Below, in pieces: positions 7,778-64,000 of a DNA stretch of 64,000 bases (its first letter is position 1; every line of letters begins with the position of its first letter). The stretch comes from Ramazzottius varieornatus (taxonomy: Eukaryota; Animalia; Tardigrada), in assembly GCA_001949185.1 (NCBI GenBank), contig BDGG01000008.1:1116001-1180000 (forward strand). The letters run 5' to 3'. A model generated the notes under the pieces. That model made no database searches and was not told the DNA's origin. It saw only the letters and a program-made list of their open reading frames with translations. The translations under genes and the position numbers were made by a program.

Positions 7778-10700
7778 TTATCCGGCTTCTTTTCCGACGA
7801 GCCAAAACGTTTCCATCATTCCTTTTCCCTATATGAAGAAATGAGATGTACAGTGGATAACAGATTTTCGTCATAGGGCAGTAGGAGCACATTCAGCTAA
7901 CGGCGGCTGGGCAGTGATACCTTGACATCGATAGGTCCACGAGGAAGTAATACAAAACCGCCGATTTTCTCCAGGAGGTCCCTGGTACTTGGACTGCACT
8001 GAATCTTTCCGGCCTCTCCATGCGATTCCATCCTGCTTGCTGTGTTCACCGTATCACCAAATCTAGAATCAAAACACATATAGCTATGCCATCAACTCCA
8101 TTTTCGTTACGAGTACTGGTTGGAATATACTTACAAGCAGTAGCGAGGCATCCGTGTTCCAATAATCGCTTTTTCGCGAAAAGCCAGAGAGTAAGTGTGC
8201 ATAGTGTACTATAGTATTTGACTATGATAAGGTTCTGAATGCAGAAGAGCTCCTACCAGCTACACAGGGACCAGAGTGCATCCCCACACGAAGCTTTAGC
8301 TTTATTTCGTCCGCGAAGTTGAACTTGACGACGGAGATCTCTCGTCGCAGTAGTAAGGCAAGATTGGAAATCTCACTGGCGTGCTTGACACCTGCAATTT
8401 TTCCGCAGTTCTCTTGAAACTCTCTCGTTTGCTCTAAGTAAATATTCTCTATCGAACCGGCCGAAGGGGATTACCGTTCCGAGTGGGAAGACCGCTGACG
8501 AGCTGCAACACGTAGAGTAGTTAGCGAAGCACTAGAGCTACTGTAGAAGGTAGAGAACCTTGACTGCGGTTCTCTGGTTCCAATTGCTAATTATGTGGCT
8601 TACGAGATATGCATCCTTGACCGTCTCCACTTTGAACACATCGTGCTTCTCGATTAGGGTATCACACGTATTATACAGCGTATTCATCACAAAGATGGTT
8701 TCGACCGGAGTATGGGCCGCAGCAATTAGTTCCGTGAAGCCATTAATATCGCTGAAGTAGACTGTTGTGCTGGAAAATGTGTCCGGAAGAATAGTGTCGC
8801 CCTTTGTCAGGGCAGAAGCGATAGACCTGAAAGGTGTTCATTGGTATCGATCTCTGTTTGGTAAAACGAAGAACCATGATATACTTTGGCAACATTTGGC
8901 CGATAATGTTTTCCGATCGCTGCTTTTCCTCCATAAACTGGCGCGTTTGTTCTTCGGCTTCGTGTTCGAGCTCCATGGCCCGCTTCTCCATGGCCTTGAT
9001 CAAATGGTCCACGATGTTCTCCCCACTCTTGCCTAATATCTTCCATAAGGTATCTTTGATCCTAGGAAAAGAAGGGCGTAGTTCGGGACGTTCGTCCCAA
9101 CACTGTTCCATCAGGTCGCGGAAGTTGGTCGGGCAGGCTGTCAAAGGAATACGCGGCCTCAGAGGCGGCATGGTTCCTCGCTTCACCTCCAGCAAAATCT
9201 CCTTGTCTGTCAAGGTATTTGGCCGGCCGTCGTTCACCCGGAAGGGCGGAGTTCGGAGGATAATTTGTTGTAGAATGATAGCTAGGAATGATTATCGTCA
9301 CTTGCTTCATTTCCATAAACTCTGCGTACTGAACGAGAAGTGGGCAACTAAACTGAGCGAAATCGTTTGATTAAGCGGCGCACACTTTCTGCTAACAACA
9401 GCGAGAGTCCACGCCACTTGGGACTGCGATCTGGTTCGCTTCAAGCCTTCATGTGCCCACATCGCGTGCATGGAATTAAACTTCTACCAATATCAGCTGG
9501 GTTCGGTAGGTGCGTTGGCTTACCGAAGGCGTACACATCTCCTTTCTGGAAAACGAGTTCGAAAAATCGCTACATCGCTCGAGAAAATAACATCATTTTT
9601 CACCTGGGTGCCTTCGGGTGGCATCGTGGTACGAAGTAACTCCGGCGGCCTCCAGAATAGCTGACTGACATCGCGCTCTTCGTCTTCGTCGATAAGCGGT
9701 CTCATGTCCTCATCTCGCCGGAAATATTCCATTCCACAATCGGAAATCTTGAGCACAAAGTTGCTGTCGACGAGGCACGTGTGTGAAGACAGGTTCCCGT
9801 GTGAAACTAGGCTGCTTCCATGCAGGTACGTCATACCCTGCAAAATGGGCCGTACTTGACCGAACCCGGAAATTGCGTCCGTATGAACTGTGAAAGGTTG
9901 TTCCTTTCAGGAAAAGAACTTTACCGCTGCGCAATCCTTTATCAGCGAGCATTTGAAATTCCAATCGAGGTCCATCCTCGCTCTTTCCAACACACGTGTG
10001 AGCGTTCCCTTGTGGCAAAACTCCCCCACGGTGAACACGCACAAGTTTTCATCGTCCACTGCGATACCGTAGAACTTCTGCAGGTTATTGTGGAGAAGCC
10101 GTTTGACCTGAAACCAATGCAGAGCTAGTACCTTTGTTGTTTTTTCTTGAAATTTCTTGGCCTACTCCCTGACGAAGGAAAAGAACTTCCATACCGGAAA
10201 CAGATTTTTCCCGATGTTGTTGCTCACGCGGTGGTATGGCTCCGGTAGAGGCGTCAGTCCCACCGTGTTCCCATCGTACAACGCCCTTTTGATCAGGTTC
10301 GTAGTATCAGTGACTGCAGAATCAGCCGTGGCCGCGGAAGTTGCTTCCTGCATTTGGCATCAGTATGAGGAATTTGATTACTCTTTCCAAATCAAGAACT
10401 GTGGTCTTCTACAGTGTACAAACTGCATTCCATCCGGTGATCACGTGTTCTCAGGCTATTAATCAACCGTAACCAACACACGTGATCACTGCAAAGGATG
10501 CATCGTGTGCACTGTAGTATTACCATTGTCATTTTGCTTTTGGCTTGCGAGCCCAGAGTACTCGTTGCTGCGGTTGATTTGCTGGGAGGGCTAATAATCT
10601 GGACTTCATGAAGAAAGATCCTCCACCAAAACGGATCGGACGAGGAGTTCATGTATCTGTCGACGCGTAAACAAAGTTGATATGAGCATAAGGCCAACCT

Positions 10701-61100: not shown

Positions 61101-64000
61101 GAAATTTTCAGATATAGTTAATAATTTTTCTTTAGTATAAATAGATTTAGATGTAAAAACTTTATCGATCACAAAAAAACTTTATCGATCAGGAAAAAGC
61201 GGTGTCGAGAAATTTGTGAAAATTTTTGTAAGAAATTCGGAAAACTCGTCTTTGTTGCAAAGGTCACTCACGAATAAGAGATTTTTTCTGAAGTGTTTGA
61301 TCGATGATTTTCGACGGACACATGATCCTGTTTGCCCACTGATTGGCTTGTATTGTCTAGTGTTTATCTTGTGGGCGGTGAGGGTATTGTTGTGGGCAAG
61401 AGAACTCACCTGACGTTGTCCACTTACGGCGCTTCTTGCTCTTGCAGAGTCCGATGCCGATGAATATGAACGGTGCTGAGTGCAACGATGATCATGTTGA
61501 TCTTGGTCGCGAACTATCCTCTCTGCACACATTGTTACGCGAGTGCCTCCTCCAAAGCAACACAATGGCCCATCGATCCACCCTAAAGAACTTACCGGAG
61601 ATCCTCCAGACCTTGACCGACCAGTTGGCCCTTAGCATGCGCGTCACCCAACCCTCGGCGGATGCCCAGTACGCCACGTACCTCTCGCGGGAAGTGCAAG
61701 AACAATTGCTGGCCAGACTGCAGAATATGAACGGGACAGTCCAGAACGGATGTCATGACTGCCTTCAAGCCACGGGACACTCTCGAGGTAACAATCGAAA
61801 TCCGGAAACGAACCAAGATAACTGTAAAACAGACGGCAAACGGACCTTGCGTGAGTGTCACCAACCTGTATACACTCATATGTCGTGATAGCAGAGGTCC
61901 GTGTATGCCGGTGCTTGAACCGCGTTGGTCGGTCGAAATCTGATGCACTTGCATACTTGCGCATGGGTGGTGTAAGCCAGAATTCTATGCTGGTGTGTGA
62001 ATTTGTTCAGGCTTGTTCGACGCGGTTTCCTTGAAGCGATCTTGGACATCAAGGGTCTTTCTATGTTTGCAGGTAGTCTGCCGAACACCAACTACCACCT
62101 GGGAGGAAGTCGGAGTGGACAACGGCCTCTGCGGAATGCATCGGTGAGTGCCACATTGGACACAGCCGATGACTATGTCCTCTTTAGTGCTATTGACGGT
62201 CAGTCGTACACCGTCAACGGCGCTATGGCTGCTGCCGCTGCTTCGGCCACACATCATCAAAAACATCAAGCGCAACGGGATGCCACTTCGGCCGGCAGTT
62301 CGCCACGCGATAGTCTACGGATGAACCACAGGGAGTCCGACGACAAGGCCAGGAAATCACCCGTCAAGCTGACTATCAACGGTGACTATGTCGACCTAAT
62401 TGGGCTAGGTATGCTTTGACCAGAGCGCATTAGCCGCTTTGGCAAGTGCACCGCTGTATAAATTATCTTCCCGGTTTCTCGAATATCAACCTATCACGGG
62501 ATCCTTAGAAAAGGTTTATGGCGTAATATCCGTCAAATTTCAGCACAATTTACGAGCCTGTCTACCAAAATCACCCCCGCGGAATATTGCCTTATAGTCT
62601 TTATTCGCAACAAGTTTCATTTTCATCATTCACAATTTTTGCAGTTTTTATTTCATTCTTTTTGGTATTTCGGAGCTCGATAAACCAACTCGACAAGATC
62701 TTTTTTGGCCAAGTGGCGCACGCTCCCAGCCGGTAACGTTGTGAGCATGCGTGACTTGGGAAAACTTCAAGATCCTTTTTTCACAGTGGCGCACTTCTCA
62801 GTGATATTGACCAATAGCGTGCGTCACTTGGCGAAATAAACGATCTTTTTGAGTTTGTTCACCTAGGTGCAATTTCATTTTTGTTTTTAAGGTAATTTTT
62901 TTGGGTCCCGTTGAAGTTAATGAAGTGGATTGTTGTTTGTAGGACGTGAGGAGCGTGGAAGTCAGACAAGTATCAGCCAGCTGTCAAGTGGCTATCAGTC
63001 CTCGTCACTTCAAGCTCGCCAAGCCAACAGCAACTCCAGCCAAAGCTGCAGTCCGATGGAGATTAGCACCGACATCTCCCCGCACAACACTTCAAAGTAC
63101 GCAGTGAACCCGAACCGGAAGTCCTACATGGATTCCTCCGATCACAACTCGAGGGCTCGCTTGTCGTCCAGCAGTGACAGCGCCGCTTCCTCCATGTCAA
63201 CACCACCACGCGACCGACGCACAAACTTCTCGGCAGCCCCACGCACAAACCCCCATTGTTCACAGAACGGTAGTCTTCCTGTCAATGCTACTCCTCCTTC
63301 CCCCAAACTGGGCATAAGAGCCTTCGGTGATACCGAAAAGAGAAATAAGCTCAAGTGTAGGCCGGTCAACCGACACGCTTCCTCCTCACCCGACAGGATC
63401 TCACATGAGAACGTCGGCAGTGACCGCGACACGAAACAGGTAAGAGATCCCCTCACGATTTCTTCAACCCAACCTACGCTGCAATGCATTAACCACAAAC
63501 GGTTTTTTTTACTCTCTCAGTACGAATTGGAGATCGATCAGCTGCGATCGCAACTTCAAGCGCTCCAAGTGAAACTCCAAGAAGCCGAAAGGAAATTGTC
63601 CAATCAGGAACAGACCACGGAGAAAGTCATTCTCGACTGGAAAGCTCAAATTGAAGCCGGTGAAGAAAGAGTAAAAAAAGAACAGATCGAGAAAGACCTC
63701 CAGATGAAAAGCATCGTTGTCAGGTATGTAAAAAGACGCTTTTGTTCGCTCAGCGTAATTGGAGAAAGTCTGCGACCGTGTTTGCGTCTTTCGCGCATCT
63801 GCATACGAACCTTCTTTGTGATGCAATGACGGCCTGTATCGATGCTGTGTCTCTCAGTCACAATTGGACCTAATGACGATCTCCTTTTTCTGCAGATTGA
63901 TAAGTGTGGAGGAAGAGCTGAGACGCGAACAGTCCGAGCTGATGGGCATGATGCGGGCCAAGCAGAAGGTGATAGAAGCTCAAGAAAAGAAGATCGAAAG
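58186..64000 (+). CDS. Ras GTPase-activating protein of the SynGAP/DAB2IP/RASAL2 (gap-2/raskol) family; common exons, 3' end beyond the window
   Basis: [15 protein letters not shown] and RSHES; C2 domain ([31 protein letters not shown]...FWGEQFEF); GAP domain with the arginine finger [21 protein letters not shown] and [13 protein letters not shown]-terminal coiled coil ([24 protein letters not shown]). Confidence 0.95.
60203..60252. repeat. GTGGCGCA-N26 element, RasGAP intron
   Basis: TCAAGTGGCGCA-26 nt-TGCGCCACTTGA. Confidence 0.85.
62688..62855. repeat. Two adjacent GTGGCGCA elements (27- and 26-nt spacers), RasGAP intron
   Basis: Left arms at about 62713 and 62786; outer CTCGACAAGATC / AACGATCTTTTTGAG. 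Confidence 0.8.

What the first reader, a model, noticed from the sequence alone, without database searches (positions are those of the whole stretch)
9353..62855. Dispersed intronic palindromic element with conserved arms and a fixed 27-nt spacer
Seen: 13 intact copies (about 9373, 13655, 14391, 17870, 20080, 22476, 23125, 44286, 48045, 54899, 60203, 62711, 62785) and one split copy of (CAA)GTGGCGCA-spacer-TGCGCCAC(TTG). By hand count the spacer is 27 nt in 10 copies, 26 nt in two and 28 nt in one. The spacer sequences differ widely, keeping only a loose off-centre TAACA/TGTTA core that gives the element an orientation. Many copies have a second, outer pair of arms (AGATCGTT...AACGATCT). All full copies lie in introns of five unrelated genes, counting the inferred RasGAP 5' introns. 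Inference: a neutrally decaying MITE should erode arms, spacer and spacer length together. Arm conservation with fixed spacing instead suggests a maintained bipartite site for a dimeric DNA-binding protein (chromatin boundary, chromosome-organising or recombination-type signal), or a conserved pre-mRNA hairpin, possibly exapted from a MITE. The arm partly resembles the GGTGGCGC half of the CTCF motif, which is only suggestive.
Basis: partly seen in the sequence, partly recalled or inferred. Interest (0 to 1): 0.8.

Follow-up and report, generated by a model that had tools for sequence, protein, structure and literature searches.

The report
Tardigrade mini-transposon with over-conserved core
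The palindromes are copies of an already catalogued 123-base miniature DNA transposon of the tardigrade Ramazzottius varieornatus, and their 9-base inner motif has changed far less than the rest, likely because a protein (probably the transposase, possibly a host factor) must bind it.

Summary
The window matches Ramazzottius varieornatus. The 13 copies are ~123-bp elements: 49-nt arms starting GGGA, a 25-nt centre with its own consensus, 4-bp flanking repeats (12 of 16 bases match in 4 testable copies). 1,080 genomic contigs lay on one copy. The family is in a published library as ramVar1-7#DNA/Sola (123 bp, 4-bp TSD, 56-bp TIR) plus about 56 sibling consensus rows (PMC11071193 supplement). 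The fixed spacer is mostly inherited length (indel rate not significantly below the arms, p=0.11). Best reading: a transposase-binding site kept by repeated remobilisation from many source copies (0.55). Host co-option, as for C. elegans CERP2/HIM-17, is not excluded (0.3). RNA-hairpin and CTCF readings are not supported. No partner transposase could be tested.

The parts
9335..9457 (+). MITE copy, ends decayed; intron of receptor guanylate cyclase gene (strand = orientation of the asymmetric centre)
13615..13738 (+). MITE copy; flanks AGCT / AGTT by eye; guanylate cyclase intron
14350..14472 (+). MITE copy with insertions in both outer arms (ends approximate); guanylate cyclase intron
17833..17955 (+). 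MITE copy whose right outer arm runs into the split copy; kinase intron 17802-18249
17955..18171 (+). Split copy, core to core: both 9-bp cores intact, centre interrupted
17980..18147 (.). Nested unrelated TIR element (about 167 bp, CAGTG-type end, next to a TA; Tc1/mariner-like by recalled hallmarks) inside the split copy
20040..20170 (+). MITE copy, left end intact, right end decayed and abutting the splice donor; squalene epoxidase intron (about 19996-20169)
22436..22560 (-). MITE copy, both ends recognisable, 4-bp flanks 3 of 4 alike; ferroportin intron
23088..23210 (+). Best-preserved copy, 123 bp, perfect 4-bp duplication ACAG / ACAG; ferroportin intron
44248..44374 (-). MITE copy; flanks AATT / AATT by eye; upstream of the shown RasGAP 5' joint, intron status not established
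48005..48126 (+). MITE copy, left arm near consensus (4 of 37 off), right arm decayed (15 of 37); long RasGAP 5' intron
54861..54982 (-). MITE copy with perfectly paired terminal 18 nt, scrambled middle arm and near-intact core; flanks ACAT / ATAT
60167..60288 (-). MITE copy in RasGAP intron 60081-60489
62671..62871 (.). Fused pair of copies (cores at 62710 and 62783, opposite orientation) in RasGAP intron 62405-62940
48983..49027 (+). Degenerate copy: perfect left core, shortened centre, decayed right core
50787..50798 (+). Lone core arm (others at 3880, 5422, 15990, 45418)

Best explanation
The palindromes are copies of a 123-bp non-autonomous DNA transposon (MITE) family of Ramazzottius varieornatus, curated as Sola-type, and their conserved 9-bp inner motif is likely the binding site of the mobilising transposase. 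Shown: inverted repeats with GGGA ends, 4-bp flanking duplications, one ancestral length, more than a thousand genomic copies, many subfamilies that share the core but differ in outer arm and centre. Inferred: a transposase supplied in trans binds the two inner motifs, pairs the ends and inserts the element at A-N-N-T sites; because only copies with intact motifs found new insertions, and amplification ran for a long time from many source copies, non-binding positions drifted while the core did not. The 25-27-nt gap is inherited length. Intron bias likely reflects target choice or loss of copies from regulatory intergenic DNA.
For: Published consensus ramVar1-7#DNA/Sola, 123 bp, 4-bp TSD, 56-bp TIR, and siblings curated as DNA transposons; by eye the window-derived consensus matches ramVar1-26 at 47 of 49 arm bases and ramVar1-7 at 24 of 25 centre bases. 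1,080 contigs of DNA run X1 lay on copy 23088-23210, depth drops to single-copy level outside about 23086-23211. TSD 12 of 16 bases in 4 testable copies, p=9e-5; A at -4 in 11 of 17 and T at -1 in 13 of 17 ends, like the AWWT/AWDT preference reported for Sola1 MITEs (PMC3845634). Recent activity: 13 contigs at 99%+ and 39 at 95-99% of the 1,080 (many are short pieces), two long siblings 97-98% alike over 91-98 nt. Copy 54861-54982 keeps terminal 18 nt and core while the middle is scrambled, the pattern expected of a remobilised diverged copy. The only post-insertion clock, TSD mismatch (4 of 32 sites), is not significantly above core mismatch (3 of 72 same copies, p=0.20).
Against: Nine copies without two intact ends still keep the core (11 of 162 changed, versus 3 of 72 in the four with both ends, p=0.56); terminal 4 nt differ at 22 of 92 sites, unusual if ends were needed until recently. 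Six sibling consensuses have TSD 'Unclear' in the published table. No autonomous element with these ends appeared among the 68 motif places shown (cells cut at 400 characters), and no transposase was tested. TSD inner bases include C and G, so the fit to AWWT is loose.
Confidence: 0.55

Rival explanations
1. Same MITE origin, but the host has co-opted the inverted motif pair: a sequence-specific protein (a domesticated transposase DNA-binding domain or another dimeric factor) binds it, and purifying selection keeps the core in copies that can no longer move, as HIM-17 does with CERP2/CELE2 in C. elegans.
For: Core 11 of 207 changed versus 271 of 1,176 elsewhere after tolerating subfamily alleles, p=9e-11; no core-less copies in a core-masked scan that scores 11 of 13 known copies above the best of 20 simulated windows; core kept in copies with dead ends and in the split copy; 12 of 13 intronic; six lone cores versus about 0.3 expected (hand arithmetic). 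Precedent in PMC9757741.
Against: TSD clock does not show post-insertion constraint (p=0.20-0.25, low power). Spacing not shown to be constrained (p=0.11). No copy lies at an evident promoter in the window. The H. exemplaris library sheet showed no place with the 9-mer (cut cells) and the paper reports no shared TE family, so any role would be lineage-specific. About 11,000 selected sites would be needed if the window is typical.
Confidence: 0.3
2. No selection on sequence: the core is kept by repair between the two arms or by ectopic gene conversion among thousands of copies.
For: Outer arms of one copy are slightly more alike than arms of different copies (0.56 vs 0.50, permutation p=0.011; 30 of 54 double changes share the letter); mosaic-looking copies (4 vs 15 mismatches in the arms of 48005-48126; siblings that match 23114-23211 only); multi-core arrays (table 5).
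Against: Unbiased arm-to-arm repair predicts paired core changes: 0 paired, 14 single. Conversion between copies should also homogenise the centre, which differs at 33%. Shared letters are also explained by subfamily.
Confidence: 0.08
3. A conserved pre-mRNA hairpin (splicing, editing or small-RNA source) is what is maintained.
For: All 13 copies fold as hairpins on the transcribed strand, z from -1.3 to -9.9, 10 of 13 below -2.5; element-bearing contigs occur in RNA-like runs (147 in X6).
Against: Folding follows from any inverted repeat. The core keeps sequence, not merely pairing (0 compensatory changes); no strand bias (4 sense, 8 antisense, p=0.39); no Rfam match at gathering scores.
Confidence: 0.05
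4. Ordinary uniformly decaying MITE; the conserved arms are an artefact of finding copies by their arms.
For: Copies were first found by their arms; only 13 copies analysed.
Against: Truncated-binomial test: mean 2.6 mismatches in 24 nt versus 5.1 expected at the centre's rate (0 of 200,000 simulations) and 4.1 at 20% (p=0.0002); masked scan finds no extra copy above 9.6 bits.
Confidence: 0.02

Closest known systems
ramVar1-7#DNA/Sola and siblings ramVar1-0, -6, -16, -23, -26, -39 (Peona et al. 2024, PMC11071193, Tables S1 and S3)
   Same: Same element: 123-125 bp, whole-length inverted repeat, same core and centre, 4-bp TSD for ramVar1-7; dimer consensuses (ramVar1-25, -50, -10, -48) echo the fused pair at 62671-62871.
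   Different: The library gives consensus and class only; the parts I read (3 of 6 text parts, spreadsheet searches) say nothing about uneven conservation, intron bias or copy number, and list the siblings' TSD as unclear.
Sola1 MITEs (Sola1_NA of Bombyx mori and Rhodnius prolixus, PMC3845634)
   Same: Short non-autonomous TIR elements, ends beginning GG, 4-bp TSD of A..T form (AWWT / AWDT).
   Different: 194-709 bp, 28-36-bp TIRs of unrelated sequence, at most a few hundred copies, autonomous partner identified; here the element is almost wholly palindromic, has thousands of copies, looser TSD centre and no known partner.
CERP2 / CELE2 MITEs bound by HIM-17 in Caenorhabditis (PMC9757741)
   Same: MITE whose inverted repeats carry a short motif at characteristic spacing, thousands of copies, motif more conserved than neighbours.
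   Different: There two different motifs (m1, m2), promoter overlap, ChIP and reporter evidence and cross-species conservation; here one motif in inverted pair, intronic copies, no binding evidence.
CTCF sites (motif recalled, from no call)
   Same: Shares the GTGGCGC stretch.
   Different: The position where the recalled CTCF motif has G is A in 24 of 26 arms; sites come as a fixed inverted pair within a transposon.

Membership tests
MITE (non-autonomous TIR DNA transposon) | Short, non-coding, uniform length | tested here: met
   122-125 bp in copies with both ends
MITE (non-autonomous TIR DNA transposon) | Terminal inverted repeats with defined ends | tested here: met
   49-nt arm consensus from GGGA; depth ends at about 23086 and 23211
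MITE (non-autonomous TIR DNA transposon) | Target-site duplication | tested here: met
   12 of 16 bases in 4 of 13 copies that pass the both-ends filter, p=9e-5; the other 9 were not testable; inner two bases alone 5 of 8 (hand count)
MITE (non-autonomous TIR DNA transposon) | High interspersed copy number | tested here: met
   1,080 X1 contigs at 80%+ to one copy
Sola superfamily | 4-bp TSD | tested here: met
   also Table S1 row for ramVar1-7
Sola superfamily (Sola1) | AWWT / AWDT target preference | tested here: inconclusive
   A at -4 in 11 of 17, T at -1 in 13 of 17 ends, but C or G at -3 in 7 of 17
Sola superfamily | Autonomous partner with Sola-type DDD transposase and matching TIRs | not testable with these tools
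   No genome held; no Sola query sequence from a tool; defining paper not held
Host-co-opted MITE (CERP2/HIM-17 type) | Motif more conserved than neighbouring element sequence | tested here: met
   Among paralogous copies only
Host-co-opted MITE (CERP2/HIM-17 type) | Constraint after insertion (orthologous conservation or core slower than TSD clock) | tested here: inconclusive
   TSD clock p=0.20-0.25; orthologous introns not available
Host-co-opted MITE (CERP2/HIM-17 type) | Bound by a host factor with an effect on expression or chromatin | not testable with these tools
   Needs ChIP, footprint or reporter data
CTCF site | Match to the core motif (recalled) | tested here: not met
   A instead of the motif's G in 24 of 26 arms
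Structured ncRNA / conserved hairpin | Compensatory changes and strand preference | tested here: not met
   0 paired, 14 single core changes; 4 sense, 8 antisense; no Rfam hit
Introner (intron-creating transposon; features recalled) | Element ends coincide with both splice sites | tested here: not met
   Copies lie inside longer introns, e.g. 122 bp in 407 nt, 123 bp in about 205 nt; one end near a donor only at 20170

The most novel reading that the evidence does not exclude
The most abundant transposon family of an extremotolerant tardigrade has been turned into roughly ten thousand intron-biased, paired binding sites for a host protein (for example a domesticated transposase domain) that organises or protects chromatin, with selection holding the 9-bp core even in immobile copies.
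Probability: 0.25. Interest if true: 0.75.

Novelty: already known. Interest (0 to 1): 0.32.

Why it matters
As a repeat it is ordinary and already catalogued. Two things are added: a unifying structure for about 57 redundant library rows (one 123-bp family, GGGA ends, A-N-N-T duplication), and a measured three- to five-fold excess conservation of a 9-bp inner motif that is not a search artefact. If the excess is element-level, it maps the likely binding site of a little-studied Sola-type transposase. If it acts after insertion, it would be a mass co-option of MITEs in a model animal for DNA protection, and one genome-wide computation (TSD versus core divergence) decides between the two.

Tried and rejected
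Whole genome not held, so copy number, intron enrichment and TSD logos rest on one window plus contig lays. Rfam: 0 matches. Metagenome scan with a 22-base pattern: 0; with an 18-base pattern 86 loci plus 3 viral loci, spacer 26/27/28 in 30/30/29 of 89 and all scoring below zero on the flank profile, so chance. No RNA holder listed as such; RNA labels are guesses, contigs cannot show editing or strand. Run X21 (same species label, next to none of the searched words) gave 10 contigs under 90% alike, mostly core to core: not interpretable without knowing the organism. The DDE_1 (pogo-like) element at about 26469-28955 has unrelated ends and is not the partner. Introner, CTCF and RNA-hairpin readings rejected as above. 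Literature searches for a description of this palindrome or its uneven conservation listed none besides the library paper; the library lacks most subscription papers. The defining Sola paper was not held. Earlier scan findings: nothing. I did not align the published consensus by program; the comparison is by eye.
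Full report
Observation. Four have both 8-mers exact, against 0 in 100 shuffles. 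A split copy has cores at 17955 and 18160-18171, separated by a nested element of about 167 bp with its own inverted ends. Six lone arms with at most one mismatch lie elsewhere.

Organism and genes. A squalene epoxidase stretch is 99% identical to RvY_13085 of Ramazzottius varieornatus and 77% to the Hypsibius exemplaris protein. No whole genome was held. Host genes: receptor guanylate cyclase, Ser/Thr kinase, squalene epoxidase, ferroportin, RasGAP. RNA-like contigs join across RasGAP introns holding three copies, and one contig skips 46141-58185, which holds two more. Seven copies fall between aligned exons of the other genes (some boundaries read by eye). The copy at 44284 is unplaced. So 12 of 13 are intronic, p=0.003 against a hand-estimated 52% intronic share; 4 are sense and 8 antisense to their transcript. 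Long, deep RNA-like contigs also carry the element (records 26, 28, 29), so elsewhere it is probably not only intronic.

Anatomy. Copies with both ends are 122-125 bp. Laying DNA run X1 (possibly the source of this window, so not independent) on 23051-23245 gave 1,080 contigs at 80% or more, with depth returning to single-copy level outside about 23086-23211, almost no indels at 3% share, and many multi-core joints. If the window is typical, about 11,000 copies are expected in 54 Mb. In the 4 of 13 copies whose two ends pass a filter, the 4 flanking bases match at 12 of 16 positions (p=9e-5); ends are preceded by A at -4 in 11 of 17 and T at -1 in 13 of 17. Three more copies show 3-4 of 4 matches by eye with shifted ends; I do not count these.

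It is catalogued. Peona et al. 2024 (PMC11071193; I read text parts 1-3 of 6, part 1 of 60 of the spreadsheet and four searches of it; the PDF, alignment and tree files were not read, cells over 400 characters are cut) list ramVar1-7#DNA/Sola, complete, 123 bp, 4-bp TSD, 56-bp TIR. Six siblings are DNA transposons with TSD 'Unclear'. The 9-mer occurs at 68 places; by my count about 57 Table S3 rows belong to this family, none shown is in the H. exemplaris sheet. By eye the window consensus matches ramVar1-26 at 47 of 49 arm bases and ramVar1-7 at 24 of 25 centre bases. All these rows share the core while outer arms and centre vary. The paper states the two species share no TE family and that R. 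varieornatus has recent DNA-transposon accumulation, with 3 DNA and 2 unknown subfamilies putatively active, not named in the parts read. Passages of PMC3845634 (12 of 14 places) give AWWT/AWDT as the Sola1 hallmark.

Uneven conservation is real. Leave-one-copy-out mismatch in 23 arms (3 fused arms dropped): terminal 10 nt 33%, positions 11-25 40%, 26-37 29%, inner 12-mer 10%, inner 8-mer 4.9%; centre 33% in 13 copies. Tolerating any allele seen in 20% of other copies: outer arm 25%, centre 18%, 9-bp core 5.3% (p=9e-11); at 15% tolerance 22%, 15%, 5.3%. Ascertainment: given the search threshold, uniform decay predicts 5.1 mismatches per 24 nt at the centre's rate and 4.1 at 20%; observed 2.6. 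A profile with both inner arms masked scores the 13 copies 12.8-92.7 bits leave-one-out, 11 above the best of 20 simulated windows (18.1), and finds no other site above 9.6. In the genome-wide lay, none of the 40 differences shown (18 not shown) falls in 23130-23136 or 23163-23173, though alignment seeding favours this.

The spacing is not shown to be special. The split copy keeps both cores at about 195 nt apart.

Mechanism. Core changes are 14 single-arm and 0 paired, so sequence rather than pairing is kept; that points to a sequence-specific protein and away from an RNA hairpin or unbiased arm-to-arm repair, although all copies fold. Which protein, and when? Element-level selection: many subfamilies with one core, near-identical siblings, and copy 54861-54982 with perfect terminal 18 nt, scrambled middle and near-intact core fit repeated remobilisation by a transposase that needs the inner site. 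Host-level selection: cores persist in nine copies without two intact ends (11 of 162 versus 3 of 72, p=0.56), terminal bases are often lost (22 of 92), lone cores persist, and copies are intron-biased. The only clock that starts at insertion, TSD mismatch (4 of 32 sites), is higher than the core rate but not significantly (p=0.20-0.25) and is biased low by the filter. I put 0.55 on the first, 0.30 on the second. The precedent for the second is CERP2/CELE2 and HIM-17 (PMC9757741, 12 of 20 passages). CTCF: the motif is recalled; the arm has A at its G in 24 of 26 arms; passages of PMC5094011 say only that CTCF was inferred in the panarthropod ancestor.

Verdict. A known tardigrade MITE family, provisionally Sola by TSD alone, with an unexplained but real over-conserved 9-bp core that my searches did not find described. 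Novelty: already known. Interest 0.32, resting on a 0.25 chance of mass co-option that one genome-wide test can settle.

Noticed in passing
window 26436-28958: Pogo-like element: long inverted ends (arms 26462-26556 / 28864-28958, 97%), DDE_1 domain ORF at 27911-28450 after an in-frame stop; left end duplicated around a 50-N assembly gap.
   Followed up: partly
window 17980-18147: Second small TIR element nested in the centre of the split copy next to a TA; its arms align at about 80% over 48 nt.
   Followed up: partly
window 31996-37956: Three tandem GFO/IDH/MocA oxidoreductase paralogues, 68-86% alike in exon blocks; none of the three carries a MITE copy.
   Followed up: no
window 30281-30399, 39951-40535, 10409-10517, 11572-12935: Other inverted-repeat pairs (35 nt 94%, 45 nt 91%, 40 nt 78%, 27 nt 89%), probably ends of further small DNA transposons.
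   Followed up: no
window 46141-58185 and 56436-58185: Two alternative 5' exons joined to the RasGAP gene in single X4 contigs, one across a 12-kb intron.
   Followed up: no
window 58185-63720: Run X5 differs from the window by scattered substitutions in RasGAP exons (2-6 per exon), so a second strain or lineage exists among public runs; useful for a polymorphism test.
   Followed up: no
window 23114-23211: Two other genomic contigs are 97-98% identical to this part of the copy but both stop at 23114, hinting at chimeric copies or conversion (records 4 and 5).
   Followed up: partly
window 20160-20172: The decayed end of the squalene epoxidase copy overlaps the 5' splice site.
   Followed up: partly
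window 15198-15321 and 31344-31457; 25998-26128 and 34095-34225: Dispersed repeat pairs (71-89% alike) near unannotated ORFs at 29120-31033 that have no Pfam match in the two tested.
   Followed up: no
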